NCBI GenBank assembly: GCA_902625415.1
Contig: CACOBG010000005.1
Span: 43,002-107,001, forward strand
Length of the DNA stretch: 64,000 nucleotides
Source of the DNA: an uncultured SAR86 cluster bacterium
GTDB lineage: Bacteria > Pseudomonadota > Gammaproteobacteria > Magnimaribacterales > AG-339-G14
Direction: 5' to 3'
The notes beneath the pieces were generated by a model, which made no database searches, was not told where the DNA came from, and saw nothing but the letters and a program-made list of their open reading frames with translations. Of this stretch, positions 10,783-45,244 are shown in pieces (the stretch's first letter is position 1; each line of letters starts with the position of its first letter). The translations under genes and the position numbers were made by a program.

Positions 10783-11250
10783 ATGAATTTTTTTATTGAG
10801 TACTTTAATAGCATTGTTGGCGCATTGGCAGCAATTGGAGCTGTAGCTTCAATTTATTATTTAATACAAGAAATGAGAGAGCAAAATAGAGTAGCAAGAG
10901 CAAATGCTAGGCAGAATGTCGCTGATAGTCATCAAGAAATTGCTTTAGAAGGTATGAAAAAAAGCATGGTTAAGATTAAGTTAAAACTACGAAACGATGA
11001 GGAACTTACTCCTGAAGAAGACGCCAAATACATGTCATATTTCAGCATAATGTTACGGTCTAGAGAAAACCAACATTATCAATACACAATTGGAATGATC
11101 GATAAAGGAGAATGGGATAATTATAAAAGATCTTTCAAAACACTTTTTAAATCAAAATATCATTTGAAATTATGGTCTTTCATGAAAAATACATTTAATG
11201 ATAGCTTCGTTGAAGTTGTTGAGGAACTTATAGAAGATGACAATAATTGA
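10783..11250 (+). CDS. hypothetical N-terminally TM-anchored helical protein
   Basis: 155 aa. A single N-terminal helix (IVGALAAIGAVASIYYLI) is followed by charged helical sequence. Its stop overlaps the next gene's ATG by 14 nt. Confidence 0.5.
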   Translation: MNFFIEYFNSIVGALAAIGAVASIYYLIQEMREQNRVARANARQNVADSHQEIALEGMKKSMVKIKLKLRNDEELTPEEDAKYMSYFSIMLRSRENQHYQYTIGMIDKGEWDNYKRSFKTLFKSKYHLKLWSFMKNTFNDSFVEVVEELIEDDNN

Positions 11251-12325
11251 AGATCAACAGGCAAAATACCTGATTAAATCTCTGCAACATCACCCAAGCC
11301 CCTATTTAATTTTTTGTAAAGGTGACGGGGTGGAATGGATGAACCAATCTGCTCAATACGTTTTTGATACAACTGAAATAGGAGATATTGGTATCGCTCC
11401 AATAATATCTCACGGTACGTCGAAGAAAATAGAAGCAATAGGATCTTCATTTCAATCCGATCTTGAACTCTCATTAAGAAAAATAAAATTTTTTTTGAGA
11501 TCTCGAGTTCATGAAATTCCCTTAGACAAAGAAGAATCTTTCTTTTTGATAGAGGTGTTGGCTCAGTCAGAGGCAGCTTTAGATGCTTTGAAAAATACCA
11601 TTTCCTGTTTAGAAAATGATCGCATAGACATGGCTTACCAAAAACAATATGACCTTGATACAGGAGACTTAGTTAGTGTGGAAACATTACTAAGATTAAG
11701 AGATGAAAAAGGAGATATCATCCCAAATGATAAATTAATACCACTGGTTGAAGGAGAAAGCTTATTTTCTCTTGTAGTGCTTGCTTCCATGCAGAAGTTA
11801 AAAGAGATTTTTAAATTCAAGAAAAAGAAAAAATTAGATTTTACCGTTTATCTTAATGTTTCAGCTTATACAGCTATGCAAGAAAACTTTTGTAGTCTCA
11901 TTTTGGATTTTGTAAAAGAAAATAATCTTAATCCGGGGGACTTGGGGCTTGAAATCACCGAAACCGCAGAGCTTGAAGATAGGTCTAGAGCAGCAGAATA
12001 TTTTGAAAAGCTTAAAAAACACGGAATACCTCTCGCACTAGATGATTTTGGAGCGGGTTACTCTTCGTTAAGCTACTTGAGAGACTTGCCGATTACTTTA
12101 GTTAAGCTTGATAAGGATTTTGCTCGAACTGTTTCTGAACAAGATACACAAGAGCTTGTTAGATTTGTGGTAACAATTTGCAATAACATGGAGTTAGGTA
12201 TGCTAGCTGAAGGGATTGAAACTGAGGAACAACAGAAAACATTTTTAGAACTTGGTTGCCACAAAGGCCAAGGATACTTTCATCACAGACCTCAGTTTTT
12301 AAAAGATTTCAAGGAGGAATTTTAA
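11237..12325 (+). CDS. EAL-domain c-di-GMP phosphodiesterase with unassigned (PAS-like) N-terminal domain
   Basis: VETLLRL, LEITETAEL, LDDFGAGYSSLSYL, VKLDKDF, AEGIETEEQ and GQGYF; the catalytic EAL residues appear complete. Confidence 0.85.
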   Translation: MTIIEDQQAKYLIKSLQHHPSPYLIFCKGDGVEWMNQSAQYVFDTTEIGDIGIAPIISHGTSKKIEAIGSSFQSDLELSLRKIKFFLRSRVHEIPLDKEESFFLIEVLAQSEAALDALKNTISCLENDRIDMAYQKQYDLDTGDLVSVETLLRLRDEKGDIIPNDKLIPLVEGESLFSLVVLASMQKLKEIFKFKKKKKLDFTVYLNVSAYTAMQENFCSLILDFVKENNLNPGDLGLEITETAELEDRSRAAEYFEKLKKHGIPLALDDFGAGYSSLSYLRDLPITLVKLDKDFARTVSEQDTQELVRFVVTICNNMELGMLAEGIETEEQQKTFLELGCHKGQGYFHHRPQFLKDFKEEF

Positions 12326-13779
12326 TGGCTATTTCGGAAAAACCCTCCAAAGGTGCGGAAAAAATATTACTGGCACAAATTAAACAAGAGTTTGCAGCTC
12401 CTGCAGAAGCTATCGAGCAATACATTGATTTGGTAGAAGAGTTTGGCGTAAAAAATAACCTCAATATCAGTTCAGAAATAAGCCAAATAAAAGAAGCTGA
12501 AGATAAGCTTTTAAGCCAGTATGAGGATGCTTTTAGAGAAAATACAGCCGCAGACAAACAAGCCAAAACATCACAAGAATACTCAGAGCTTAGACATAAT
12601 CTTCGTACTCCTTTGAATGCAATAATTGGATATAGCGAAATATTAATGGAAGACTTTGAAGATGATTTATCTGAGGAGTGTCTTAAAGATTTAAATACAA
12701 TTTTAACTTTATCGAGAGAAACAGAAACGGCCATAGAAAGATTTGTGGATTTTATTAAAGGTGACTTAAATGAAAAAGCTGCTGAAGATTCTGAACAAGG
12801 CCAAATTCAGAATGCTGAATCTTTATTTAGATCTTTAGGAGACATAGATTACAGTTTAGATATAGATGATTATCTCAAAGGATCCGATGTGTTAATTGTC
12901 GATGATAACAAGACAAACTGTGAAGTTTTGGAAAGGAGACTAACTCAAAATGGGCTTTCTTGCAGAGTAGCTCTAGATGGGACAACTGCAATTAAAGAAG
13001 TGGATGCTAAGACGCCCGATCTTATTTTGCTAGATGTAATGTTGCCGGATATAAACGGACTAGAGCTCCTAAAAAGATTTAGGAAGAATCATGATAGAGA
13101 TGAGTTGCCAATCATTATGGTATCGGCATTCAATGATGTTGATAGCACAGCTAAATGTATAAAGTTAGGTGCCTCAGACTATCTTCCTAAACCATTGAAT
13201 GGAACCATTTTAATGGCGAAATCAATTGCCAGCTTGGAAGCAAAATATTTCAGAGCAAGAGAACAAGAACTTTTGAAGGAATTGAATCTCAGAGCAACAA
13301 CTTGCCCATTAACTGGAATTTATAACAGACAGGTTGTTTTTGACAAAATCGAGGAATGTTTCGAGAAATTGAAGCAAGAAAAAGATTATGAATTTTCTTT
13401 ACTCTCCATGGATATAGATTTTTTCAAATCTATAAATGACACTTATGGACACCCTGGAGGCGATGAGGTCTTAAAAGCAGTTGCTAACGGCCTGAGAGAT
13501 GCATGTGGTGAAAATGTTATCGGCAGAGTAGGTGGAGAGGAATTTATTGCAGTTTTAGAGAATAAAGAAGGAAAGAGTTTAAACGATTACTGTGAAAATA
13601 TTAGAAAGGCTGTGGTTGAACTATCAATTCCCTTCCAAGATGTTGAAATAAATATTACTATAAGTGGAGGAGTCATTAATTCATCTGAGGTTAAGAATCA
13701 AGAAGAACTTGTTAATCTTGCAGATGAAAGGCTCTATAAAGCAAAAGAGGGGGGAAGAGATCAGTTTATTTATAGCTGA
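12325..13779 (+). CDS. DHp(HisKA)-REC-GGDEF protein: diguanylate cyclase response regulator with N-terminal histidine-phosphoacceptor domain but no ATPase domain
   Basis: Start chosen at ATG 12325 (AAGGAGGA at 12311-12318; TAATG overlap with the EAL stop). H-box SELRHNLRTPLNAIIGYSEIL (His codon 12595-12597), REC (VLIVDDNK...DLILLDVMLPDING...KP) and GGDEF (RVGGEEF). Confidence 0.85.
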   Translation: MAISEKPSKGAEKILLAQIKQEFAAPAEAIEQYIDLVEEFGVKNNLNISSEISQIKEAEDKLLSQYEDAFRENTAADKQAKTSQEYSELRHNLRTPLNAIIGYSEILMEDFEDDLSEECLKDLNTILTLSRETETAIERFVDFIKGDLNEKAAEDSEQGQIQNAESLFRSLGDIDYSLDIDDYLKGSDVLIVDDNKTNCEVLERRLTQNGLSCRVALDGTTAIKEVDAKTPDLILLDVMLPDINGLELLKRFRKNHDRDELPIIMVSAFNDVDSTAKCIKLGASDYLPKPLNGTILMAKSIASLEAKYFRAREQELLKELNLRATTCPLTGIYNRQVVFDKIEECFEKLKQEKDYEFSLLSMDIDFFKSINDTYGHPGGDEVLKAVANGLRDACGENVIGRVGGEEFIAVLENKEGKSLNDYCENIRKAVVELSIPFQDVEINITISGGVINSSEVKNQEELVNLADERLYKAKEGGRDQFIYS

Positions 13780-13790
13780 AGGAGAGAGTT

Positions 13791-14156
13791 ATGAAAAAGA
13801 TTCTTTACGTTGAAGATAATGAAATGAATCGCGATATGTTAGGCAGAAGATTAACAAGAAGAGAATATGATGTCATTTTTGCTTTTGATGGTCAGGAAGG
13901 GCTTGATAAAATGAAATCGGAAAGCCCAGACTTAGTATTAATGGATATGGGTCTTCCTGTCTTGGACGGTTGGGAAGCTACTACTCAGGCAAAAGCTGAT
14001 CCAGAAATTTCTAATATTCCAATCATTGCTTTAACTGCTCATGCAATGGAGCACGATAGACAAAAAGCCTTGGAATGCGGAGCTGACGACTTTGATACAA
14101 AGCCCGTTGATTTTAAGAGGCTTTTAGAAAAAATCGAGTCAAATTTAGGCGCTTAG
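13791..14156 (+). CDS. single-domain CheY-like response regulator
   Basis: KILYVEDNEMNRDML, DLVLMDMGLPVLDGWE and FDTKPVDF; 121 aa with no output domain. Confidence 0.9.
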   Translation: MKKILYVEDNEMNRDMLGRRLTRREYDVIFAFDGQEGLDKMKSESPDLVLMDMGLPVLDGWEATTQAKADPEISNIPIIALTAHAMEHDRQKALECGADDFDTKPVDFKRLLEKIESNLGA

Positions 14157-17146
14157 CTCTTAGCTCCTAATAATTTAGTAACCATACCCGGAAGCTGATT
14201 AATAGATACCTCATCTTTTTTAACCAGCCCAGCAACATTTTTTCTTAAAAGTTCTTCTTGTACTTCTGATAGATCTTTCCCTGAATAAACAAGAATATTA
14301 GGTTTATCTTCAAAATCCATCTCAACAAAGTTTTCTAAAAATTCAAAACCATCCATGCGAGGCATTTCTAGATCTAGGACAATAAGCGCTGGATTTTTGT
14401 CCAAATTTTCAAGTCCTTCCTTTCCATCTCTAGCTAAGAAAGCTTCGTAACCGGCATCATTTAAAGCTCTCCCCAAAATGTCTCTTGTATTTGAATCATC
14501 ATCAACAACTAAGATTTTTTTATTTGTTGAGCTACCAAGCAAGTTCGTTACCATCTTAAGAAATTTATCTCGGTCAATTGGCTTGGTGAGATAGTCATCT
14601 GCTCCCAAAGAAAATGCTAAAGTTTCTTGCGACATTTGGGAAACCATTATTACCGGAATGTTTTTTATAGATTCATCAGATTTGCATTCTTTCAAGATAG
14701 ACCAACCATCTCTTCCCGGCATTAAAACATCTAATAGAATGAGTTTTGGTTTTGACTCTCTTATCATATTAAGGCCTTGTTCACCATTAGTTGCTCCAAT
14801 TAATGTCATGCCTGCTTTTTTTACTGTCCTTTTTATCAAGTCATGCATTGCTATATCATCATCAATGAGCACACATAAGTTTTCTCCCTCTAAGGACGAT
14901 ATCTCTTCATTTTCGAGTTCTTCAGATTCATCGCAGATTCTGGGAATAAAAATTGAAAATACAGATCCAACTCCTTTTTCACTAGATACTGTTACGCCAC
15001 CACCCATTAATTCAGCAAATCTTTTACTAATAGGCAGACCCAAGCCAGTTCCACCATGAGTTGCCGATGTAGATCTTTCAGCTTGCTCATATTCTTCGAA
15101 GACTTTCGCTACTCCTTCTTCGCTCATACCTTCACCATCATCAGTTACCTTGAATTCAATCATCTCAACTTCATCCTTCATGAAAGAATTAACATCCAAG
15201 GTTACAAGGCCATTATTTGTAAATTTGAAGGCATTGCTTAGGAAATTTGTCACACACTGCCTTAGCTTCGTTTCGTCTTGTGACATTGATCCTATAGCTT
15301 CTTGAATATTTATCTTGAAGCCATTGTCGTTTTTCGCTGCCAAAGGTGCATTTATATCCCTTAGAGTTTCAACCACTTTTTCAATTTCAAAGCTAGTGAT
15401 GAAAAGCTCCATTTTTCCAGACTCTATTTTTGAAAGGTCCAAAATATTATTAATGAGAGACAAGAGATGTGTTCCAGAAGTGGTAATCTTCTTAAGATCA
15501 GGCATTAAATCTTCATAACCTAAATCTTCGCACTCTTCATAAAGCATTTCTCCGTATCCTAAAATTGCATTCAATGGGGTTCTGAGTTCGTGACTCATAT
15601 TGGCAAAAAATTTACTCCTCTGTTCATTGGCCTCGAGCGCTTCATCTCGAGACTCCTCCATCTCTTTGGTTCTTGTGTCTATAAGAACTTGTACTTCATC
15701 TGCCATTCTTGTGAATGCAACTGTCATTAATTCAACTGAAGCTTCTTCTCCTTTATCCTGGGAGCTTTCTTGAGCTAGATTTTGCATTTTATTAATATCG
15801 TTAAGAATTAACGTTCTTGAATCTCCTTCAAGCTCATCGGCAAGAATACTCATTTTTTCTATGATCGCAGTATCCCTTTCTTTTCTTCTGCGTGCCTGTT
15901 CAGTTCTGATATTTTCCATCTCATTTAGATGGCCTCTGTAAATTTCTAGAGCCTTTGCAAGCTCACCAACCTCATCATTTTCAGATCTTAAAAGACCTTT
16001 TCTCTGCGGCATGGTTTTAGATAAGTCTCCACTGGTGAGAGCCTGTAAAACTTCAATTGCTTTATTTACCGATCCAAAAACATTAGCAAGAATTCCTGAA
16101 GTTAAAGCAATCACCAGAAAAATTACAATTGTAATTATTATGTAGATTGAATTTAAGATAGCATTCTCTTGAGCGATACTTTCGCTTTCATCTCTGAAAA
16201 TAAATAATTGTGCTTTATCTGATGAAAGGTATGAACTCAATGGAAGAAGTGTGATGAGGGATCCTAAGTCTGAATCTCTTGTAGAAGTTCTATTGCCAAA
16301 CTCTTCTAAGTTTGAATTTGCCTTATCAACATGACCTTTAATGTTGGTAATTCCAAAATTAGAAGTTTCGTCTAACTCCAAGCCCGACTCATATCTAGCA
16401 TAATCATCGCCCAATGAAATGATTCCTTCTTCTGTTTGCACTGCAGTAACAAGTTCAAATTCATCACCAAAGGTCTCCATAGACTTTCTTACATCTATTC
16501 CCATGACAATAATTGCTTCAGCATTTCTGCTAAAAGCTTTTATCGGGAAAGCCATCATTTGGTTTAGGGTAGAAATTTTTTCTCCAGACGAGTCTACGAT
16601 TTTTTGTAAAAATCTCCTTGGCCTCTTGCCTGCATCAATAAGAAATTCGTCAAGATTATTATCGTATTCATTTTTCGCTTGAGGACTACATGCATCTATT
16701 CCAGATAAGTCCAGTGCGCTAGAACAATAAAACCTTTGCCCATTTGGATAATAAGCTTTAATAAAACTTAAATTCCCTTCATCCAAATCAAATTCAAACA
16801 TCAGATCCAGGAGATATCCTGCTTCCCCAATGTTTTTATCCGTGATGAATTGGATTAACGGATTGGCATAATCGTCATCAGGCGAGGAAAGTTCCTCTTC
16901 AGGATATATAGGATTTTCGGGATCCCAAAAATTGCCTCTTTCTCCAGTTATTGGAAGCCAGGCAGAAATTGCGTCAATTGAAGTTTCGAGAGTCTGAAAC
17001 CATGCAGCCTCATACGTTGAAACCAAAGACTCATTAGCAAAACTTTTCTGTGTAGTATCCCTATAGTTGAACAAAAAAAATAAGGAAAGGGCTAGCAGTA
17101 AGTTTCCTGCTAGGCCAATCCCAATTAATACTGTTCTGATACGCAT
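14153..17146 (-). CDS. hybrid sensor histidine kinase (periplasmic sensor-HAMP-DHp-CA-REC-REC)
   Basis: Two TM helices flank about 300 aa. HAMP (DEVGELAKALEIYRGHL), H-box FFANMSHELRTPLNAILGY and G2 box HGGTGLGLPISKRFAELMGG. Two receiver domains (LILLDVLMPGRDG; LIVLDLEMPRMDG) and no Hpt domain. Confidence 0.9.
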   Translation of the reverse strand: MRIRTVLIGIGLAGNLLLALSLFFLFNYRDTTQKSFANESLVSTYEAAWFQTLETSIDAISAWLPITGERGNFWDPENPIYPEEELSSPDDDYANPLIQFITDKNIGEAGYLLDLMFEFDLDEGNLSFIKAYYPNGQRFYCSSALDLSGIDACSPQAKNEYDNNLDEFLIDAGKRPRRFLQKIVDSSGEKISTLNQMMAFPIKAFSRNAEAIIVMGIDVRKSMETFGDEFELVTAVQTEEGIISLGDDYARYESGLELDETSNFGITNIKGHVDKANSNLEEFGNRTSTRDSDLGSLITLLPLSSYLSSDKAQLFIFRDESESIAQENAILNSIYIIITIVIFLVIALTSGILANVFGSVNKAIEVLQALTSGDLSKTMPQRKGLLRSENDEVGELAKALEIYRGHLNEMENIRTEQARRRKERDTAIIEKMSILADELEGDSRTLILNDINKMQNLAQESSQDKGEEASVELMTVAFTRMADEVQVLIDTRTKEMEESRDEALEANEQRSKFFANMSHELRTPLNAILGYGEMLYEECEDLGYEDLMPDLKKITTSGTHLLSLINNILDLSKIESGKMELFITSFEIEKVVETLRDINAPLAAKNDNGFKINIQEAIGSMSQDETKLRQCVTNFLSNAFKFTNNGLVTLDVNSFMKDEVEMIEFKVTDDGEGMSEEGVAKVFEEYEQAERSTSATHGGTGLGLPISKRFAELMGGGVTVSSEKGVGSVFSIFIPRICDESEELENEEISSLEGENLCVLIDDDIAMHDLIKRTVKKAGMTLIGATNGEQGLNMIRESKPKLILLDVLMPGRDGWSILKECKSDESIKNIPVIMVSQMSQETLAFSLGADDYLTKPIDRDKFLKMVTNLLGSSTNKKILVVDDDSNTRDILGRALNDAGYEAFLARDGKEGLENLDKNPALIVLDLEMPRMDGFEFLENFVEMDFEDKPNILVYSGKDLSEVQEELLRKNVAGLVKKDEVSINQLPGMVTKLLGAKS

Positions 17147-17168
17147 TTACGCGTAAAAATTTAAGATC

Positions 17169-17552
17169 TTATTGAACTCGAAAAGATAATTTAACTTGCA
17201 CATCATTTACTTGGACAGGTACGCCTTCATATATTGGCGGCTGGTAAATCCACTTTCTAATAGATTTCATTGCTGCTCTATCAAAAAGTCCTGCAGGTTC
17301 TCCTTCTAAAACAAAAGGATCTATGACATCGCCATCAGCGCTGACATCGAATTCAACTATTACATAACCTTCTTTAGCAAGTCTCAAAGCTTTTCTTGGA
17401 TAGCTTGCAGGTGCTTGATATTGTCTTTCAACATCCATTTCGATGTTTTTTCCGTCGACAGTAATAAAGCCCTTATCAGCATGCATTAGGGAACTTAATC
17501 CCAAAAAAAGAATAGATAGAGACAATAATTTAATTCCTTTTTTAAATATCAT
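17169..17552 (-). CDS. secreted TonB C-terminal-domain-only protein
   Basis: Start moved to the ATG at 17552 (AGGAGA upstream). Signal peptide MIFKKGIKLLSLSILFLGLSSLMHA, then YPRKALRLAKEGYVIVEFDVSADGDV...FDRAAMKSIRKWIYQP (TonB_C). No TM anchor or Pro-rich spacer. Confidence 0.75.
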   Translation of the reverse strand: MIFKKGIKLLSLSILFLGLSSLMHADKGFITVDGKNIEMDVERQYQAPASYPRKALRLAKEGYVIVEFDVSADGDVIDPFVLEGEPAGLFDRAAMKSIRKWIYQPPIYEGVPVQVNDVQVKLSFRVQ

Positions 17553-17613: not shown

Positions 17614-18012
17614 ATGTCTGAAAACATCGAATCATTGCTTTTAAACCAAAGATATTGGGACATATTTGCTGTTGCCAGGAACTCCTCTATCGATGAAGCT
17701 TGCAGAATAATGGATAAAAACAGAATTGGAGCTTTATTAGTTTATTGTTCCGATACAAATGACCCTCAAGACCTTGAGGGTATCATTACTGAAAGAGATG
17801 TAATCGAGCTTATTTCCAGAAAAGGAAAAGAAGCCTTAAATAACGAGGTCAAAGAAATAATGTCTAAAAACATTGTTAGCGTTACGCCACAATGTACAAA
17901 ACTCGATGCTCTAGATCTGATGATGGAAAACCAAATTCGCCATCTTGCCGTGATGGACAAAGAAAAACTTGTTGGAGTTCTTTCCATGCGAGACTTAATC
18001 AAGCAACTTTAA
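17614..18012 (+). CDS. CBS-pair domain protein
   Basis: 132 aa containing two CBS motifs (IGALLVY...GIITERDV; IRHLAVMDKEKLVGVLSMRDL). Confidence 0.85.
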   Translation: MSENIESLLLNQRYWDIFAVARNSSIDEACRIMDKNRIGALLVYCSDTNDPQDLEGIITERDVIELISRKGKEALNNEVKEIMSKNIVSVTPQCTKLDALDLMMENQIRHLAVMDKEKLVGVLSMRDLIKQL

Positions 18013-39952: not shown

Positions 39953-39989
39953 ATGGTCGAAACATTGGTAGTTTTAGACCATTTTTTTT
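39953..39989 (+). promoter_or_regulatory. hairpin plus T8 tract in the leader of the TonB2-type operon (attenuator or sRNA terminator candidate)
   Basis: ATGGTC-GAAAC [attggta] GTTTT-a-GACCAT followed by T8 (39982-39989). It ends 32 nt before ATG 40022. A U-tract is present only on the + strand. Confidence 0.4.
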
Positions 39990-40021
39990 GCTTTAATCTT
40001 AAAATAATCAGGGGATTAATA

Positions 40022-40789
40022 ATGTTTACAACTAAGTTAAATAGGGCAATTTTAACGTTTTTTTTATTAACTGCATCATTATATTTAAGTGCTCAACTTG
40101 AGCCTATATTAGAGGTTAATAGTGAAAGGGCGCTTCTTGCTCAAGCTTCTCAACAAAAAATAGATTCTTTTCAAGAAAAAACGGACAGAGATTCTGCTGA
40201 ATACAAAAGTGTAAGTAAGCAAATCGAAGGATTGAAAGTCTACAACGCTCAGAAAAGAAAACAAATCAAACGTCAGGTTGAGAGGATGAAAGAGATTGAA
40301 AAAACTATGAAAGACTCAACTGTTTTGCAACGTCAAATTCCCCCGTTAGCAAGAAGAATGTTTGAAGGTTTAAAGCAATTTATAGCTCTTGATATCCCCT
40401 TTAGAGCAGGCGAAAGAACAGAAAGATTGTCCTTTATTCAAGCAGCTTTAGATAACCCAGTTGTATCTCCTGCCGAAAAACTTAGACAGGTTTTAGATGG
40501 CTATTCTGTTGAATCCGAATATGGAAGAAAAATAGATACTTATAAAGATACTATCCTGATAAATGATCAAGAGAGAGATGTAAATATTTTAAGAATTGGT
40601 AGATTGGTTCTTGCTTATCAAACATCTGATCTATCTGAAACAGGTATTTATAATAAAGAAACTCAGTCCTGGGAATCTTTACCAGGTAGATACAGAAATT
40701 CAATTAGAGACGGCATAGCAATGGCAAAAAAAGTTAAAACTGTTGATATTTTGGAGTTACCTATTCCAGCTGCGGAGGTGACTCAATGA
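40022..40789 (+). CDS. DUF3450-type periplasmic coiled-coil protein (TtpB-like)
   Basis: Start moved to ATG 40022 (AGGGGA upstream). Signal peptide then coiled-coil sequence, first gene before the MotA/TolQ/ExbB paralogues as in Vibrio TonB2 loci. Confidence 0.75.
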   Translation: MFTTKLNRAILTFFLLTASLYLSAQLEPILEVNSERALLAQASQQKIDSFQEKTDRDSAEYKSVSKQIEGLKVYNAQKRKQIKRQVERMKEIEKTMKDSTVLQRQIPPLARRMFEGLKQFIALDIPFRAGERTERLSFIQAALDNPVVSPAEKLRQVLDGYSVESEYGRKIDTYKDTILINDQERDVNILRIGRLVLAYQTSDLSETGIYNKETQSWESLPGRYRNSIRDGIAMAKKVKTVDILELPIPAAEVTQ

Positions 40790-42159
40790 AATCAAAGTTA
40801 CTAATAATTGTTTTTGCACTATTTCTCCCCCTTTCATTTGCGCAGGAAGAAAAGCCTGACACAGCGCTGTCTTTAGAACAGCTTTTAGAACTTGTTCAAC
40901 AAGGGAAATTTGCAGAATCTGAAGAAGCGACAGAAAGGGAACAAAAATTTGCTAGGGAAAGAAGTCGTCAGGCAACATTGCTTGCAAACGCAAAAGCAGA
41001 AAGGTCTAGGCTTGAGGGAATTGCTACAGAATTAGAGTCAAGATTTGAAGCTAATGATGCCAAACTTGTTGTTTTAGAAGAACAACTTAAAACTAGACTT
41101 GGATCTTTGTACGAAACTTTTGGTCACCTTCAAGGAGTAGCTTCAGATACACAACAACAATTTGAGTCAGCGGTAACTTCTGGACAATTTGGTCAGGATA
41201 GGGAAATTTTCTTGAAAGACCTTGCGAAAAGAATGGGCGAAGGTATTAGTTTGGCTTCTATCGAAGAACTTGAAAGACTTTGGTACGAGTTACAAAGAGA
41301 ATTAATTGCTTCGGGGAATGTTCAAAAATTCCAAGCGACGGTTGTTGATAATGAAGGTCAAACATCTCAGCAAAACGTAGTAAGAGTAGGAAATTTTAAT
41401 GCAGTTACAGAAGGACAATATCTTACTTATCTTCCAGCTCGAGGAGCTTATGAAACTCTTCCAAGACAGCCGGGTAGGTATCTTGGAGGAACATATGACG
41501 TGCATGACACTTCAACAGGTTTTGTTGAGTTTGCAGTAGATCCAACAGGGCCTCAAGGAGGAGCACTACTAACAAATTTAATTTCTTTACCAAGCTTTTT
41601 TGAGCAGATTCAGTATGGAAGAATCACAGGTTATACCATTATCCTTCTCTTTTTATTAGCTACAGGAATTTTTGGCTGGAGAACTTATATCTTGTTTAAT
41701 CTTGACAAAAATGTAAAGAAAGAAGCTTCTGGCTCTAAACAAGGGAATAATCCTCTTTCAAGAATCTTTGATGTTGCCGAACAAAACAAAGGATCAGATG
41801 TTGAGACATTAGAATTAAAATTAGCAGAACAAATATTAGTTGAGAGAGCATCTATAGATACTGGTATTTGGTTAGTTAGATTAATCTCAGTTGTAGCTCC
41901 TTTATTGGGATTATTTGGAACCATTACTGGAATGATAAACACTTTCCAAGCTATTACTTTATTTGGAACTGGCGATCCAAAAACAATGGCAAATGGTATT
42001 TCTGAGGCTCTTGTTACAACTATGCTTGGCTTGATGACTGCTATTCCAGCAACTTTTATGGCTGCTATCATGGCTAATTATGCTAAGAACATACTTACTG
42101 TTCTTGAAGAACAAAGCACAGGAATGGTGGCTGCAGCATCTGAAGAAAACAAAGCTTAA
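40786..42159 (+). CDS. large MotA/TolQ/ExbB-family proton-channel protein (TtpC-like)
   Basis: 457 aa. Long N-terminal periplasmic coiled-coil region and C-terminal APLLGLFGTITGMINTFQAI...GISEALVTTMLGLMTAIPA. Confidence 0.8.
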   Translation: MKSKLLIIVFALFLPLSFAQEEKPDTALSLEQLLELVQQGKFAESEEATEREQKFARERSRQATLLANAKAERSRLEGIATELESRFEANDAKLVVLEEQLKTRLGSLYETFGHLQGVASDTQQQFESAVTSGQFGQDREIFLKDLAKRMGEGISLASIEELERLWYELQRELIASGNVQKFQATVVDNEGQTSQQNVVRVGNFNAVTEGQYLTYLPARGAYETLPRQPGRYLGGTYDVHDTSTGFVEFAVDPTGPQGGALLTNLISLPSFFEQIQYGRITGYTIILLFLLATGIFGWRTYILFNLDKNVKKEASGSKQGNNPLSRIFDVAEQNKGSDVETLELKLAEQILVERASIDTGIWLVRLISVVAPLLGLFGTITGMINTFQAITLFGTGDPKTMANGISEALVTTMLGLMTAIPATFMAAIMANYAKNILTVLEEQSTGMVAAASEENKA

Positions 42160-42164
42160 TAACT

Positions 42165-42689
42165 ATGGCTTTCCTATTTGGATTACAAGATACTCTCCTA
42201 GATTTTTTTGAAAAGGGGGGTGGAGTTGTTGTCTTCATAGGCTTCTTAATTATCTTGATGTGGAGCTTTATTCTGGAGCGTTTTTGGTACTTCAAATACA
42301 TCCATACAGATGTAGAAAAAGATATACAAAACGCCTGGAAAGAAACTCCAGATCGCAAATCATGGTCAGGACATCAAATTAGATCCATGTTGATTTCAAA
42401 AGCAAATGTGAAAATACAAAGTAACTTGGAGTACATTAGAGTAGCCATTGTATTAGCTCCATTATTGGGTTTGTTAGGAACTATTTTAGGAATGATAGAA
42501 GTTTTTCACATCTTAGCTGTTACTGGTGGGGGTGATGCAAAGGCAATGGCTGGCGGCGTGGCTAAATCTACTATCCCGGCAATGGCTGGTTTGATGGCTG
42601 CGATACCCGCAACCTTTGCTTCAAGAATATTGGAACAAAAAGCAAAAAAACAATCGGATTTATTACAGGAACATTTAACTTTTGAGTAA
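42165..42689 (+). CDS. exbB: ExbB/TolQ-family proton channel
   Basis: APLLGLLGTILGMIEVF...MAGLMAAIPA. Confidence 0.85.
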   Translation: MAFLFGLQDTLLDFFEKGGGVVVFIGFLIILMWSFILERFWYFKYIHTDVEKDIQNAWKETPDRKSWSGHQIRSMLISKANVKIQSNLEYIRVAIVLAPLLGLLGTILGMIEVFHILAVTGGGDAKAMAGGVAKSTIPAMAGLMAAIPATFASRILEQKAKKQSDLLQEHLTFE

Positions 42690-42695
42690 AAAAAA

Positions 42696-43106
42696 ATGAG
42701 AAGATCACTAATCAGTCAAGCAGTAGAAGAAAAGGACGAGCCGAATATTACTCCTATGTTGGATGTTGTATTTATTCTTTTGATTTTCTTCATTGTTACT
42801 GCAAACTTTATAAAAGAACCTGGTTTAGAAATCAATAGACCGGACTCAGAGACAGCTGAGGTTACCGAAAATGCTGCGATCCTAATAGCAATTGGCTCCG
42901 CCGGTGAAATATATATGGACGGCAGAAGAATTGATGTAAGGCAGGTTAAAGCAAATGTCATAAGAATGATCGCAGAGAATCCTCAGGGAACAGTTGTCAT
43001 TCAGGCTGACGAAAAATCGACAGCTGATACAATTATTGATGTTATGGATGAAGTAAGAGAAGCTGGAGTAATAGATATATCTATTGCCTCTGAACCTAAT
43101 TTTTAA
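42696..43106 (+). CDS. exbD: ExbD/TolR-family protein
   Basis: ITPMLDVVFILLIFFIV and a periplasmic domain; 136 aa. Confidence 0.85.
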   Translation: MRRSLISQAVEEKDEPNITPMLDVVFILLIFFIVTANFIKEPGLEINRPDSETAEVTENAAILIAIGSAGEIYMDGRRIDVRQVKANVIRMIAENPQGTVVIQADEKSTADTIIDVMDEVREAGVIDISIASEPNF

Positions 43107-43852
43107 TGAGACAATATCTAAGACAACTATTTTTAAACTTTTTAAACAAAGCTTTCACATTGCAGTTAAAGGATGAAAGTTCTTTTTCTTTGAAAAAACT
43201 TATGGTTGACGATAATCCTTACCAAAAGTACGGATTAGCTGCTGCAGGCGGGACTGTAGTTTCTTTTGCTTCAATACTACTGATGGCCTTGTTAATTGCT
43301 ACTGGGGAAGTTTCTTTAGACGATTCAAATCTAAGAAAAATTGTAGATGTGGTAATGCCAGTGAGAGACCCTGAATTAATTGACTCTGTTGAAAGACCAG
43401 AAGAAGCTGAGCCTGAACCTGACCAACTGCCTCCAGAAGTAGATATTGAAAACATAGAAGAGCTACTTGATCAATCAGTTAATCCAAATTTAAACTTCAA
43501 AAGAAGAAGATCCGGAGTTTTTATGGATGGCTCTTATGTGCCTATCTTTCAAGTACCACCGCAATATCCTAGAAGAGCTGCAGAAAGAGGCATAGAAGGG
43601 TGTGTTGTACTTAAATATGTTGTTACCGAGGTAGGGTCTGTAAGAGATCCAGAAGTTGTTCAGTCTATTCCCCAAGGAATTTTTGATAGAGCTGCAATTA
43701 GAGCTGCGTTAAGATATAAATATAAACCTCTCATAAGAGATGGAAATGCAGTTGAAGTTGAAGGTGTAACTCAAAGGATAACTTTCGTTCTTGAGGGAGA
43801 AGGGAAAGGTCCTGGATATATTCCAGAAAACTGTAGAGGTATACAAGGTTAA
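43106..43852 (+). CDS. tonB: energy transducer TonB
   Basis: TM anchor, short acidic/Pro spacer (RPEEAEPEPDQLPPE) and C-terminal PPQYPRRAAERGIEGCVVLKYVV. TAATG coupling to exbD. Confidence 0.8.
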   Translation: MRQYLRQLFLNFLNKAFTLQLKDESSFSLKKLMVDDNPYQKYGLAAAGGTVVSFASILLMALLIATGEVSLDDSNLRKIVDVVMPVRDPELIDSVERPEEAEPEPDQLPPEVDIENIEELLDQSVNPNLNFKRRRSGVFMDGSYVPIFQVPPQYPRRAAERGIEGCVVLKYVVTEVGSVRDPEVVQSIPQGIFDRAAIRAALRYKYKPLIRDGNAVEVEGVTQRITFVLEGEGKGPGYIPENCRGIQG

Positions 43853-43855
43853 GAT

Positions 43856-45244
43856 ATGATTAGAATAATTGTTTTACTTTTTTTATTTTCAAATTTTTCT
43901 TTTTCACAAAACAAAGATAATCCAGAACAAACAAAATTTGACTTTCCAGGTTACACCTTGAAAGGCTGTTTGGGTTCTGAATTATCGAAGCCAAAAAGAC
44001 AAGTAGCTAAATTACCTAGCAAACAAGCTCAAAGGTACTTAAAAGAGCTTTTCCCTTTTTTACAAGCCGAGAACGAAGATCTTGTTAAAGCTAAAAACGT
44101 TCTTAATAAGATGTCATCAGATAATAGCCTCACAGAATCTGATAAGGCTCAAATGTATTACTATTTTGCCTACATAGATTCTGTAAACGATGATCTTAAA
44201 TCTGCTAAGAAAAATTATATAAAATTCCTATCTATTGAAGATGCTGATCCAAGATTAAAATCAAACGTCATTTCTATGTTAGGACAACTTTCTTACTCAG
44301 AAGGCAGTTATAAAACTGCCATAGATTACATGGAACAATGGATTGCTATGGAAAGTAATCCTAGCTCACTGGGTTTTGACATAATTGCAGCGTCATATTG
44401 GCAATTAAAGGATAAAAAGAAAGCTCTAAAGTTTTCTGAAAGAGCTTTATGTGTTGCGAAGGCTAATAAATCAAAACCAAAAGAATCAACATACAACTTA
44501 TTAGTAGCCCTTTACAATGAAAATGAAAGGATTGATGACATGCTCCCATTATTTGAAGAGTTGGTTAGGTTTTATCCTAAGAAAAGATATTGGACACAGC
44601 TTTCAGGGGTTTATGGAGAACTTAAAAAAGAGAAAAAACAACTTTCTTCATTAGAGGCAGCTCATGATCAGAGGCTTTTAGATAAAGAAACCGAGTACGT
44701 TTCTCTTTACCAGTTGCTTATGAGAGCGGAAGCACCTCTTAAGGCTGCAAGAGTCATGCAGTTCGGAATAGAAAAAGAATTTGTGAAAGAAAATGAAAAG
44801 CATCTTAAATACCTTGCTCAAGGTTGGCATATGGCTCAAGAGCTTGATAAAGCAGAACCAGTTTACGAAAAAGCAGCAATGAAATCAGAAGAAGGAGAAT
44901 TGTATGTTTTTCTTGGTCAAATCTACCTAGCTACTGACAGATATAAGAAAGCAAAACAAGCACTTCAGTTAGGTCTTAAAAAAGGAAAATTAAAGGATCC
45001 AGTTACTGTAAATATTCTTTTAGGCCAAGTTGCTTATGAGCTTCAAGACTTTGAAGACGCGACAAAATTTTTCAGAACGGCAATCGATAGATTGTCAGAT
45101 ATCAAAATAAAAGATAAAGAAGCTCGAGAGAAAAAACAAGATAAACTGAGAACCCAAGCCTTAAATTGGCTTACCTATACTGAGAAAGAAAAGAAAAGAG
45201 TTGAAATGCTTCAACTCAGGATCAAAGACCTAGAAGAAAGTTAA
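43856..45244 (+). CDS. TPR-repeat protein (TtpD-like)
   Basis: Signal peptide and repeated TPR-like A..Y..AL helices. Last gene of the TonB2-type cluster. Confidence 0.7.
   Translation: MIRIIVLLFLFSNFSFSQNKDNPEQTKFDFPGYTLKGCLGSELSKPKRQVAKLPSKQAQRYLKELFPFLQAENEDLVKAKNVLNKMSSDNSLTESDKAQMYYYFAYIDSVNDDLKSAKKNYIKFLSIEDADPRLKSNVISMLGQLSYSEGSYKTAIDYMEQWIAMESNPSSLGFDIIAASYWQLKDKKKALKFSERALCVAKANKSKPKESTYNLLVALYNENERIDDMLPLFEELVRFYPKKRYWTQLSGVYGELKKEKKQLSSLEAAHDQRLLDKETEYVSLYQLLMRAEAPLKAARVMQFGIEKEFVKENEKHLKYLAQGWHMAQELDKAEPVYEKAAMKSEEGELYVFLGQIYLATDRYKKAKQALQLGLKKGKLKDPVTVNILLGQVAYELQDFEDATKFFRTAIDRLSDIKIKDKEAREKKQDKLRTQALNWLTYTEKEKKRVEMLQLRIKDLEES

What the first reader, a model, noticed from the sequence alone, without database searches (positions are those of the whole stretch)
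17169..17552. Soluble periplasmic TonB C-terminal domain encoded directly upstream of a sensor kinase
The 127-aa product has a cleavable-looking signal peptide (…LSSLMHA/DKG) followed only by a TonB_C domain (YPRKALRLAKEGYVIVEFDVSADGDV…FDRAAMKSIRKWIYQP). It lacks the N-terminal TM anchor and the Pro-rich spacer that couple real TonB to ExbBD. A complete TonB is present elsewhere, at 43106-43852. The gene sits 22 nt upstream of the hybrid kinase and is co-oriented with it. A free TonB_C could bind exposed TonB boxes of ligand-loaded receptors, or peptidoglycan, and report this to the kinase periplasmic domain. It could also simply be an unrelated periplasmic binding module.
Basis: partly seen in the sequence, partly recalled or inferred. 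Interest (0 to 1): 0.55.

Follow-up and report, generated by a model that had tools for sequence, protein, structure and literature searches.

The report
Secreted TonB domain paired with sensor
A small secreted protein made only of the TonB "hook" domain is always encoded directly in front of one rare type of periplasmic sensor, in SAR86 and other marine bacteria and often next to an outer-membrane transporter, which suggests an undescribed way for cells to report transporter activity to second-messenger signalling.

Summary
Window 17169-17552 (minus strand) encodes a 127-aa protein: a Sec-type signal peptide followed only by a TonB_C domain. It lies 22 nt upstream of a co-oriented 997-aa hybrid histidine kinase. 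The organism is SAR86.

The pairing is not local synteny. In 48 of 48 informative SAR86 species genomes the short TonB_C gene sits directly upstream of the kinase.

The kinase's periplasmic domain is a rare double-PDC/dCache-like fold with no Pfam or NCBIfam model. In other marine Gammaproteobacteria it is fused to different outputs: class III cyclase, SiaA-like PP2C phosphatase, or hybrid kinase. Most of these genes, and every cyclase-type one, are again preceded by a secreted TonB_C gene. In the cyclase lineages a conventional TonB-dependent transporter with a canonical TonB box lies beside the pair, directly upstream in all but one sub-lineage where it is convergent downstream. TonB_C and sensor co-diverge (Mantel r = 0.95).

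Best reading: a periplasmic co-sensor that couples the sensor, probably to the TonB-box state of transporters. In SAR86 this would feed a phosphorelay to a diguanylate cyclase and an EAL phosphodiesterase.

No physical interaction was tested. I found no published description. I rate it a new variant of trans-envelope and accessory-protein signalling.

The parts
17169..17552 (-). Secreted TonB_C-only protein, 127 aa. Residues 1-25 are the predicted Sec signal peptide (nt 17552-17478). Residues 26-47 are a family-specific conserved N-terminal extension. Residues 49-125 are the TonB_C core.
   Evidence: Signal-peptide comparison across 44 orthologues. Closest solved relative is the V. anguillarum TonB2 CTD, 2k9k, E = 6.8e-17. 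38% identity to the genome's own TonB CTD. Family alignment.
17147..17168 (-). 22-nt intergenic spacer between the TonB_C stop codon and the kinase ATG. It contains no terminator, so the two genes are presumably one transcript.
   Evidence: The equivalent gap is 15-58 nt in SAR86 orthologues and 3-50 nt in the six non-SAR86 loci measured.
14153..17146 (-). Hybrid sensor histidine kinase, 997 aa. Layout: TM1 (about res 5-27), periplasmic double-PDC/dCache-like domain (about res 28-335, with invariant C141 and C153), TM2, weak HAMP, HisKA, HATPase_c, two REC domains. There is no Hpt domain.
   Evidence: Pfam. AF2 model with pLDDT 62.5. Foldseek hits to 2p7j, 3lid, DctB 3by9 and LuxQ 3c38. Conservation. 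Only 63 representative homologues of the sensor among 1.84e9 proteins. No NCBIfam model.
13791..14156 (+). Single-domain response regulator (REC only, 121 aa), convergent with the kinase and overlapping its stop codon by 4 nt.
   Evidence: A convergent REC gene is present in 43 of 43 SAR86 loci long enough to show it. Also seen in L001-L007, L061 and L110.
12325..13779 (+). DHp(HisKA)-REC-GGDEF protein, about 484 aa from the ATG at 12325. The H-box is HNLRTPLNAI and the active-site motif is GGEEF. It has no HATPase domain. It is the candidate histidine phosphotransfer step and diguanylate cyclase output.
   Evidence: Pfam; sequence. TAATG start/stop overlap with the EAL gene. Conserved in L001-L007 and L110.
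11237..12325 (+). EAL-domain protein (362 aa), the putative c-di-GMP phosphodiesterase of the module.
   Evidence: Pfam EAL, E = 2.4e-51. Motifs EITE, DDFGAGYSS and EGIE are visible. Conserved position.
10783..11250 (+). 155-aa hypothetical protein with one N-terminal hydrophobic segment. It is the first gene of the EAL/GGDEF/REC arm and is conserved in position.
   Evidence: A 154-187 aa gene without Pfam hits sits at the same place in L001-L007 and L110.
17614..18012 (+). CBS-pair protein (132 aa) transcribed divergently from the TonB_C gene. It shares the 61-nt promoter region. It is conserved next to the module even where the further flank differs.
   Evidence: Present in a divergent position in 42 of 50 SAR86 loci. 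Seen in L001-L007 with different outer flanks.

Best explanation
**What it is.** The 127-aa protein is exported by Sec, loses its leader, and acts in the periplasm as a soluble TonB C-terminal domain. It cannot transduce energy. It is the dedicated partner (co-sensor) of the double-PDC/dCache-like periplasmic domain of the hybrid kinase encoded 22 nt downstream.

**Proposed mechanism.** The TonB_C module binds, by beta-strand augmentation as in real TonB, the TonB box that an outer-membrane TonB-dependent transporter exposes when loaded with substrate. Partitioning of the free TonB_C between transporter and sensor then sets the activity of the kinase.

**Proposed output in SAR86.** The kinase (His to Asp on its own REC domains) would pass phosphate through the kinase-less DHp domain of the neighbouring DHp-REC-GGDEF protein to its REC domain. 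This would control c-di-GMP synthesis. The EAL protein and the single REC protein would act as antagonist and sink.

**What is shown.**
- Domain content and leader features.
- Invariant gene pairing with this sensor domain across SAR86 and across three different output types.
- Frequent linkage to a canonical TBDT in relatives.
- Co-divergence of the two proteins.

**What is inferred.**
- Leader cleavage.
- Physical binding to the sensor.
- TonB-box binding.
- The direction of regulation.
- The phosphorelay order.
For: 1. **Domain and leader.** TonB_C only. Tripartite, non-conserved leader with A/S/T at -1 in 39 of 44 orthologues and a conserved mature part.
2. **SAR86 adjacency.** 48 of 50 species-level loci have the TonB_C ORF directly upstream and co-oriented. 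The other two are cut 108 and 207 nt upstream. Gaps are 15-58 nt. The outer flank differs between clades (NadB versus metallo-beta-lactamase) while the module stays.
3. **The link is to the sensor domain, not the kinase.** Homologous sensor domains fused to a class III cyclase, a SpoIIE/PP2C phosphatase or a hybrid kinase have a 122-158-aa TonB_C gene 3-50 nt upstream. In 42 further metagenome loci, 22 of 22 cyclase-type, 7 of 7 truncated and 11 of 16 PP2C-type sensors with enough upstream DNA have it.
4. **All nine sensor clusters** (below about 55% identity to each other) carry their own TonB_C. The distance matrices correlate with Mantel r = 0.946, and 0 of 2000 permutations reach this.
5. 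**TBDT linkage.** Among sensors whose cyclase output could be called, TBDT -> TonB_C -> sensor-cyclase is found in 19 of 20 loci where upstream sequence allows a call. In one sub-lineage (L074, L075, L077) the TBDT is instead convergent downstream, so the neighbourhood survives rearrangement. These TBDTs are plain Plug + barrel with a conserved TonB box, (I/V)EEV(F/Y)(V/I)TGSLLPKG.
6. **The TonB_C core is canonical.** The YP motif, FER motif and last strand are present. Best PDB match is the TonB2 CTD 2k9k. So TonB-box binding is plausible.
7. **Established knowledge.** Soluble TonB fragments bind TBDTs, and TonB's affinity for FhuA rises with ligand (PMC11658791).
8. **Sensor fold.** It resembles LuxQ, DctB and vpHK1S-Z8 double-PAS/PDC sensors. 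LuxQ works through a periplasmic partner protein (own knowledge).
9. **Precedents.** TonB_C serves as a sensor module in the second most common M56/BlaR-like architecture (PMC13492132). An outer-membrane receptor -> periplasmic protein -> kinase relay exists in PahS/PahP/PahK (PMC10570129).
Against: - No interaction was modelled or measured.
- In SAR86 itself no TBDT is adjacent. The window's TBDT (58745-61594) is 41 kb away and is not an orthologue of the cassette TBDTs (about 25% identity over the plug only).
- Some sensor homologues lack an upstream TonB_C: L008/L009, L066, L090, L092, L108. In L063/L064 a second sensor paralogue also lacks one directly upstream.
- The Mantel correlation is inflated by shared phylogeny.
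- Many metagenome loci are close relatives, so the independent evidence is about nine lineages, not about 90 loci.
- Signal-peptide cleavage is not verified with a trained predictor.
- A free TonB_C would compete with the real TonB, which could be costly in a TBDT-dependent organism.
Confidence: 0.55

Rival explanations
1. A partner of the sensor, but not through TonB boxes. The secreted TonB_C protein binds the double-PDC domain and modulates it in response to something else: peptidoglycan or envelope state, a peptide, or a small ligand. This would resemble LuxP-LuxQ, CpxP-CpxA or DbfQ-DbfS. The TBDT neighbour in relatives would merely import the ligand.
For: - Strict pairing with the sensor domain.
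- No TBDT beside the SAR86 and PP2C versions.
- A family-specific conserved N-terminal extension and a V(N/D)(D/E)(V/I) signature that real TonBs lack. These could form a different binding surface.
- Small periplasmic accessory proteins of kinases are well documented (PMC12714742, PMC4160245).
Against: - The TonB_C core, including the strand that pairs with TonB boxes, is fully canonical.
- The tight three-gene cassette with a TBDT of one orthologous subfamily persists through rearrangement. This is more than expected for a mere importer.
- The TonB_C fold has no known small-ligand pocket (own knowledge).
Confidence: 0.2
2. A periplasmic decoy or brake on TonB-dependent uptake. The free TonB_C competes with real TonB for TonB boxes and throttles transport. 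It is co-transcribed with the sensor only so that it is regulated with it, and there is no direct contact with the sensor.
For: - Canonical TonB_C core.
- TBDT adjacency in relatives.
- Periplasmically expressed TonB C-terminal fragments inhibit TonB-dependent transport in E. coli (own knowledge: Howard et al. 2001, not retrieved here).
Against: - The conserved association follows the periplasmic sensor domain across three unrelated cytoplasmic outputs. It is kept where no TBDT is nearby.
- TonB_C and sensor co-diverge.
- A pure decoy has no reason to track one rare sensor fold.
Confidence: 0.12
3. A minimal but genuine TonB paralogue. The N-terminal hydrophobic segment is an uncleaved signal anchor that docks to ExbB/ExbD and energises a dedicated TBDT. 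This is what the database name 'energy transducer TonB' implies.
For: - Sources annotate orthologues as 'energy transducer TonB' or 'protein TonB'.
- TBDT adjacency in cyclase-type relatives.
- Dedicated TonB paralogues such as HasB exist (PMC3602595).
Against: - The N-terminal segment is not conserved in sequence and has no conserved His or S-x3-H motif. Its uncharged stretch is 12-20 residues and it ends in A/S-rich cleavage-type sites.
- Only about 22 residues lie between it and the globular domain, and there is no Pro-rich or extended linker. That is far too short to span the periplasm.
- No exbBD genes are adjacent.
- The genome has a complete TonB2-type system elsewhere.
Confidence: 0.07
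4. Coincidental neighbour. This would be an ordinary short TonB_C protein that happens to lie next to a kinase in a compact genome.
For: - SAR86 genomes are streamlined with short intergenic regions, so tight spacing alone is weak evidence.
- Short TonB-like proteins are common enough to have their own NCBIfam model (LIC_10042 family).
Against: - Adjacency in 48 of 48 informative SAR86 species loci and in nine divergent sensor clusters.
- It holds in organisms with GC content from 0.35 to 0.53 and with three output types.
Confidence: 0.03

Closest known systems
TonB-dependent cell-surface signalling (FecA-FecR-FecI and other TonB-dependent transducers)
   Same: Both are trans-envelope relays in which the state of an outer-membrane TonB-dependent transporter is reported to an inner-membrane signalling protein. 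In relatives the transporter gene is clustered with the signalling genes.
   Different: - The cassette TBDTs have no N-terminal STN signalling domain.
- No anti-sigma or ECF sigma genes are present.
- The connector would be a free TonB_C protein.
- The receiver is a double-PDC sensor with kinase, cyclase or PP2C outputs.
- In SAR86 no TBDT is linked.
Periplasmic partner proteins of sensor kinases: LuxP-LuxQ, TorT-TorS, CpxP-CpxA, QseG-QseE, DbfQ-DbfS
   Same: - A small exported protein is encoded next to and co-oriented with a membrane sensor and presumably controls it through the periplasmic domain.
- The sensor fold resembles the LuxQ periplasmic double-PAS domain (3c38).
- Literature: PMC12714742, PMC4160245, PMC6075780.
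   Different: - The partner here has the TonB_C fold. It is not a periplasmic binding protein, a CpxP-like protein or a lipoprotein.
- The pair is conserved across three different output domains.
- It is frequently joined by a TBDT.
PahS-PahP-PahK-PahR of Cycloclasticus (PMC10570129)
   Same: - Marine gammaproteobacterium.
- Gene cluster of outer-membrane 22-strand receptor, periplasmic protein and histidine kinase.
- The periplasmic protein shuttles between receptor and kinase.
- There is a downstream link to c-di-GMP.
   Different: - PahP is a 318-aa substrate-binding protein that carries the ligand itself.
- PahK lacks a periplasmic sensor domain.
- Here the connector is a 100-aa TonB_C domain, which would recognise the transporter's TonB box rather than the ligand, and the kinase has a large periplasmic domain.
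TonB / TonB2 energy transducers (E. coli TonB; V. anguillarum TonB2, PDB 2k9k)
   Same: The C-terminal domain is homologous and canonical (E = 6.8e-17 to 2k9k; about 40% identity to the E. coli core). It shares 38% identity with the genome's own TonB CTD.
   Different: - No membrane anchor, no periplasm-spanning linker and no exbBD context.
- It has a cleavable-type leader.
- It has an extra conserved 22-aa N-terminal extension of the mature protein.
M56 (BlaR1-like) sensor-transducers with a C-terminal TonB_C domain
   Same: TonB_C is used as the extracytoplasmic input module of a signalling protein. This is the second most common M56 architecture (PMC13492132; also noted for B. theta TonB homologues, PMC10350073).
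   Different: There TonB_C is fused to the membrane protease. Here it is a separate secreted polypeptide paired with a double-PDC sensor. The function of the M56-TonB_C proteins is itself unknown.

Membership tests
TonB energy transducer (TonB-ExbB-ExbD system) | C-terminal TonB_C domain (PF03544 / TIGR01352) | tested here: met
   PF03544 E = 5.3e-18. TIGR01352 E = 2.5e-15. PDB TonB2 CTD E = 6.8e-17.
TonB energy transducer (TonB-ExbB-ExbD system) | N-terminal transmembrane anchor that couples to ExbB/ExbD (conserved S-x3-H-type helix) | tested here: not met
   The N-terminus behaves as a cleavable leader. It is not conserved in sequence, has no conserved His, has a 12-20 residue uncharged stretch, and ends in A/S/T-rich sites at -3/-1.
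TonB energy transducer (TonB-ExbB-ExbD system) | Extended, usually Pro-rich, periplasm-spanning linker | tested here: not met
   Only about 22 residues lie between the predicted cleavage site and the YP motif, with no Pro-rich stretch. The genome's real TonB has such a region.
TonB energy transducer (TonB-ExbB-ExbD system) | Genomic or functional association with exbB/exbD | tested here: not met
   No exbBD genes next to the gene in the window or in any orthologous locus. exbB-exbD-tonB are at 42165-43852.
Periplasmic accessory / co-sensor proteins of membrane sensors (LuxP-LuxQ type) | Exported soluble periplasmic protein | tested here: inconclusive
   Leader features are consistent in 44 orthologues and in non-SAR86 members. 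However, no trained signal-peptide predictor was available and there is no experiment.
Periplasmic accessory / co-sensor proteins of membrane sensors (LuxP-LuxQ type) | Gene adjacent to and co-oriented with the sensor gene, conserved across taxa | tested here: met
   48 of 48 informative SAR86 loci. Nine sensor clusters with three output types.
Periplasmic accessory / co-sensor proteins of membrane sensors (LuxP-LuxQ type) | Physical interaction with the sensor's periplasmic domain that changes output | not testable with these tools
   No multimer prediction was available. Only indirect co-divergence was measured (Mantel r = 0.946).
TonB-dependent cell-surface signalling (FecA/FecR/FecI type) | TBDT carrying an N-terminal STN signalling domain | tested here: not met
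   Six full-length cassette TBDTs show only Plug + barrel.
TonB-dependent cell-surface signalling (FecA/FecR/FecI type) | Anti-sigma factor and ECF sigma factor encoded with the TBDT | tested here: not met
   None were seen among the called genes or Pfam hits of the loci examined.
TonB-dependent cell-surface signalling (FecA/FecR/FecI type) | TBDT gene linked to the signalling genes | tested here: inconclusive
   Met in cyclase-type relatives: upstream in 19 of the 20 confirmed cyclase-type loci where sequence allows a call, and convergent downstream in the L074/L075/L077 sub-lineage. Not met in the window or other SAR86 loci.
dCache / double-PDC extracytoplasmic sensor domains (for the kinase's periplasmic domain) | Long N-terminal helix followed by two PAS-like alpha/beta modules between two TM helices | tested here: inconclusive
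   The AF2 topology and Foldseek hits to 2p7j, 3lid, 3by9 and 3c38 (probability 1.0, TM 0.5-0.6 on target) fit this fold. But model pLDDT is 62.5, and no Pfam dCache or NCBIfam model matches.

The most novel reading that the evidence does not exclude
A previously unrecognised class of trans-envelope signalling. A secreted TonB C-terminal domain acts as a diffusible reader of TonB-box exposure on outer-membrane transporters. It hands that information to a dedicated double-PDC sensor whose cytoplasmic output has been swapped during evolution between a phosphorelay to c-di-GMP, cAMP/cGMP synthesis, and a SiaA-type PP2C partner switch. In SAR86, one of the most abundant ocean bacteria and one that lives off TonB-dependent uptake, this would convert 'transporters are busy' directly into a c-di-GMP signal.
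Probability: 0.4. Interest if true: 0.85.

Novelty: new variant of a known kind. Interest (0 to 1): 0.72.

Why it matters
- TonB-dependent transporters dominate nutrient capture in marine heterotrophs, SAR86 above all. How such streamlined cells sense what their transporters are doing is unknown.
- The only established route from a TBDT to the cytoplasm needs an STN domain, an anti-sigma factor and an ECF sigma factor. A free TonB_C 'reader' coupled to a sensor with interchangeable outputs would be a second, mechanistically different route.
- It would give a function to the many short proteins annotated as 'energy transducer TonB' that cannot transduce energy.
- It would define a new extracytoplasmic sensor family that has no Pfam or NCBIfam model.
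- It would give a concrete handle on c-di-GMP signalling in an uncultured, globally abundant clade.
- The cyclase version is directly testable in E. coli, using a cAMP reporter in a cya-deficient strain.

Tried and rejected
1. **Structure of the TonB_C protein.** AF2 with a 41-sequence family alignment gave pLDDT 51.6. This is too poor for a fold search or interface reasoning, so only secondary structure was noted.
2. **A broad sensor alignment (A4)** was too divergent for the locus scanner. I replaced it with A2 for genomes and A5 for metagenomes.
3. **Word-indexed homologue search of the sensor** returned only 18 close hits. The exhaustive HMMER search was needed to reach the cyclase and PP2C versions.
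4. **A TonB-box-like strand inside the kinase's periplasmic domain.** I read through the sequence for one. The conserved W-x-P...W-x-P...NP loop (res 60-96, predicted disordered) also occurs in homologues that lack TonB_C (P0145). It therefore cannot be a TonB_C-specific site. GxSITxxPLS is a core strand of the fold. Neither resembles a TonB box.
5. **'ITV' in the mature N-terminus (GFITVDG)** as a self-mimicking TonB box. Rejected, because it is not conserved in other clades (GYVGED).
6. **The window's own TBDT (58745-61594)** is not an orthologue of the cassette TBDTs.
7. **L010** (a sensor homologue without a visible TonB_C) has a run of N in the upstream gap, so it was left undecided.
8. 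**Nine literature searches** found no description of a secreted TonB_C paired with a sensor, only analogues. The library is open-access only, so absence is not proof.
9. **Output-domain and TBDT calls in the 42 metagenome loci** rest on my own phmmer/HMM exemplars. They were spot-checked with Pfam but not curated for every locus.
Full report
**1. The observation**

The ORF lies on the minus strand from the ATG at 17552 to the stop at 17169 and encodes 127 aa.
- Pfam TonB_C matches residues 49-125 (E = 5.3e-18). TIGR01352 matches at E = 2.5e-15. Nothing else matches.
- The next gene on the same strand, 22 nt downstream, is a 997-aa hybrid histidine kinase (14153-17146) with HisKA, HATPase_c and two REC domains. 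No terminator lies between the two genes.
- The 'complete TonB elsewhere' is real. 43106-43852 encodes a 248-aa protein with a TM segment, an acidic/Pro spacer and a TonB_C domain. It sits in a TonB2-type cluster: DUF3450, MotA/ExbB, ExbB, ExbD, TonB, TPR.
- These are the only two TonB_C ORFs in the 64-kb window.
- Database names of near-identical proteins place the window in the SAR86 clade.

**2. Signal peptide or anchor?**

I extracted the orthologue from 54 loci, giving 44 distinct sequences.
- All have a K/R-containing n-region, an uncharged stretch of 12-20 residues, and a Ser/Ala-rich c-region that ends just before the point where conservation starts.
- Examples: ...SSSFA|D, ...NIASA|D, ...ASSISA|ITD, ...SVASA|A.
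- Residue -1 is A, S or T in 39 of 44. Residue +1 is D in 37 of 44.
- The leader sequence itself is not conserved, while the mature protein is highly conserved. There is no Cys.
- The window's own site (M-H-A|D) is the weakest of the set, but it aligns with the canonical ones.
- No conserved His or S-x3-H motif exists. Only about 22 residues separate the leader from the YP motif.

This is the behaviour of a cleaved Sec leader, not of a TonB anchor. It is inference: no trained predictor was available.

**3. The TonB_C domain**

- The closest solved relative is the TonB2 C-terminal domain of Vibrio anguillarum (2k9k, E = 6.8e-17). E. coli TonB follows.
- Identity to the genome's own TonB CTD is 38%.
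- The YP motif, the P..FER motif and the last beta-strand (the one that pairs with TonB boxes in TonB-transporter complexes) are all present.
- Two features are specific to the family. One is a conserved ~22-residue N-terminal extension of the mature protein, predicted as a beta-hairpin in a low-confidence model. The other is a V(N/D)(D/E)(V/I) signature before the last strand.

**4. The kinase's periplasmic domain**

- Residues ~28-335 lie between two TM segments. They have no Pfam or NCBIfam match.
- They contain two invariant cysteines, C141 and C153.
- A moderate AF2 model (pLDDT 62.5) shows a long helix followed by two alpha/beta modules.
- Foldseek finds double-PDC/dCache-type sensors: 2p7j, vpHK1S-Z8 3lid, DctB 3by9, and LuxQ 3c38 with TM 0.62 on the target.
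- An exhaustive HMMER search of 1.84 billion representative proteins found only 63 homologues. This is a rare sensor family.

**5. Is the adjacency conserved?**

*Within SAR86*
- Orthologues at 49-65% identity keep the order TonB_C -> hybrid kinase. The kinase is convergent with REC <- DHp-REC-GGDEF <- EAL <- small hypothetical. The outer flank differs between clades.
- A scan of one genome per GTDB species gave 50 SAR86 loci. A TonB_C ORF lies directly upstream and co-oriented in 48. The other two are cut 108 and 207 nt upstream of the kinase.
- Gaps are 15-58 nt.

*Beyond SAR86: the decisive result*
- Distant homologues of the sensor domain (22-31% identity) are fused to other outputs. Each has a short TonB_C gene 3-50 nt upstream:
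  - SpoIIE/PP2C phosphatase: P0149, P0175;
  - class III adenylate/guanylate cyclase: P0162, P0182;
  - hybrid kinase: P0154, P0220.
- Each of these TonB_C proteins has its own signal-peptide-like leader.
- A metagenome scan with the non-SAR86 sensors gave 42 more loci.
- Counting these 42 together with the seven non-SAR86 loci fetched earlier (L061-L067), and only sensors with enough upstream DNA, TonB_C is present for 22 of 22 cyclase-type, 7 of 7 truncated and 11 of 16 PP2C-type sensors.
- Clustering gives nine sensor clusters below about 55% identity. Each has its own TonB_C. The two distance matrices correlate with Mantel r = 0.946, and 0 of 2000 permutations reach this. Shared phylogeny inflates this figure. 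Even so, the pair has stayed together through at least two output-domain swaps.

*Exceptions*
- L008/L009, L066, L090, L092 and L108 have no TonB_C in the DNA held.
- L010 is unresolved because of a run of N.

**6. A transporter joins the pair**

- In the cyclase lineages the order is TBDT (~1000-1060 aa) -> TonB_C -> sensor-cyclase, tightly packed. Among sensors whose cyclase output could be called, this holds in 19 of 20 loci where upstream sequence allows a call. Four further loci with truncated sensors show it too.
- In one sub-lineage (L074, L075, L077) the orthologous TBDT is instead convergent downstream. The neighbourhood therefore survived a rearrangement.
- These TBDTs are plain Plug + barrel proteins without an STN domain.
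- They share a conserved canonical TonB box, (I/V)EEV(F/Y)(V/I)TGSLLPKG.
- The PP2C versions sit with SiaC and DUF6272 (SiaB-like) genes, that is, a SiaA-type partner switch. They have no TBDT within the DNA seen.
- SAR86 loci have no adjacent TBDT. The window's TBDT at 58745-61594 is unrelated to the cassette subfamily beyond the plug.

**7. Mechanism**

*Shown*
- An exported-type TonB_C-only protein.
- Obligate genomic pairing with one rare periplasmic sensor fold, whatever the output.
- Frequent linkage to a canonical TBDT.
- A canonical TonB-box-binding core.

*From established knowledge*
- TonB C-terminal domains bind TonB boxes by strand addition. Soluble fragments do so in vitro, and affinity for FhuA rises when ligand is bound (PMC11658791).

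*Inferred*
- The free domain partitions between exposed TonB boxes and the sensor's periplasmic domain. This sets the sensor's output as a kind of periplasmic partner switch.
- In SAR86 the hybrid kinase has no Hpt domain. The neighbouring GGDEF protein carries a HisKA/DHp domain with an intact H-box (HNLRTPLNAI) but no ATPase, followed by REC and a GGEEF cyclase.
- The likely relay is therefore kinase His -> kinase REC Asp -> DHp His -> REC Asp -> c-di-GMP synthesis. The EAL protein (EITE, DDFGAGYSS) and the lone REC would oppose or drain the signal.
- The direction of regulation is unknown.

**8. Rivals**

- (a) A partner of the sensor that senses something other than TonB boxes: 0.20.
- (b) A decoy that throttles uptake without touching the sensor: 0.12. 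This is hard to square with pairing that follows the sensor fold even without a TBDT nearby.
- (c) A minimal true TonB: 0.07. It fails three of four defining features.
- (d) Coincidence: 0.03.

**9. Comparison with known systems**

- It works most like TonB-dependent cell-surface signalling (FecA/FecR/FecI). However, it lacks the STN domain, the anti-sigma factor and the ECF sigma factor.
- It also resembles periplasmic partner proteins of kinases (LuxP-LuxQ and others), but with a TonB_C fold.
- The PahS-PahP-PahK relay of Cycloclasticus is the nearest three-part analogue. It uses a substrate-binding protein as the shuttle (PMC10570129).
- TonB_C as an input module has a precedent in M56/BlaR-like proteins, where it is the second most common architecture and its function is unknown (PMC13492132).
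- Nine full-text searches found no description of this pairing.

**10. Verdict**

- All evidence is comparative. No binding was modelled or measured, and the TBDT link is absent in SAR86 itself.
- I rate it a new variant of known kinds of envelope signalling.
- Interest is 0.72. The strong reading has about a 0.4 chance of being right and would deserve about 0.85 interest if true.

Noticed in passing
window 12325-13779 (+), with 11237-12325 (+): The GGDEF protein carries a HisKA/DHp domain with an intact H-box but no ATPase domain, ahead of REC-GGDEF (GGEEF). The hybrid kinase lacks an Hpt domain. The DHp may therefore be the histidine phosphotransfer step. Its ATG overlaps the EAL stop codon (TAATG), which suggests translational coupling.
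   Followed up: partly
window 17614-18012 (+): A CBS-pair protein is transcribed divergently from the TonB_C gene. It stays in that position in 42 of 50 SAR86 species loci, even where the next flank differs. It may belong to the module, for example as a nucleotide- or energy-sensing input.
   Followed up: partly
window 39953-45244 (+): A complete TonB2-type gene cluster (DUF3450, 457-aa MotA/ExbB-family protein, ExbB, ExbD, TonB, TPR protein). It has the same order as the Vibrio ttpB-ttpC-exbB2-exbD2-tonB2-ttpD system (order recalled from own knowledge).
   Followed up: partly
window 14153-17146 (-), kinase residues 141 and 153: Two cysteines 12 residues apart (YCxSxxxxxGxDxC) are invariant across the periplasmic sensor family, including the cyclase and PP2C versions. 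They probably form a structural or redox-sensitive disulfide in the membrane-distal module.
   Followed up: no
window 14153-17146 (-), kinase residues ~60-96: A stretch with invariant W63, P65, G68, G71, W74, P76, N95 and P96 is predicted disordered (pLDDT below 50) in the AF2 model. Being conserved yet unstructured suggests it folds on a partner or ligand. It also occurs in homologues without TonB_C.
   Followed up: partly
L063 4288-7526 and L064 5262-6985: The TBDT-TonB_C-sensor-cyclase loci carry a second paralogue of the same sensor domain fused to SpoIIE/PP2C, followed by SiaC and DUF6272 genes. One TonB_C may therefore serve two sensors with different outputs in one organism.
   Followed up: partly
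L010 7796-9787 and L066 4352-5770: Two sensor-kinase homologues are each followed by a Castor/Pollux-RCK-type ion channel gene. L066 lacks an upstream TonB_C and L010 is unresolved because of a run of N. This looks like a different, also conserved, partner arrangement for the same sensor fold.
   Followed up: no
L024 3619-3978: In one long-read SAR86 MAG the TonB_C ORF lacks its start and leader, as if by a frameshift. This is probably an assembly or polishing error rather than a pseudogene.
   Followed up: no
window 10783-11250 (+): A 155-aa protein with a single N-terminal hydrophobic helix and no family match opens the EAL/GGDEF/REC arm. It is conserved in position in SAR86 and in L110.
   Followed up: no
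L067 1831-2265: One cyclase-type TonB_C leader contains LLFGC, a possible lipobox, besides an ANA|AD site. Some family members might be lipoproteins rather than soluble proteins.
   Followed up: no
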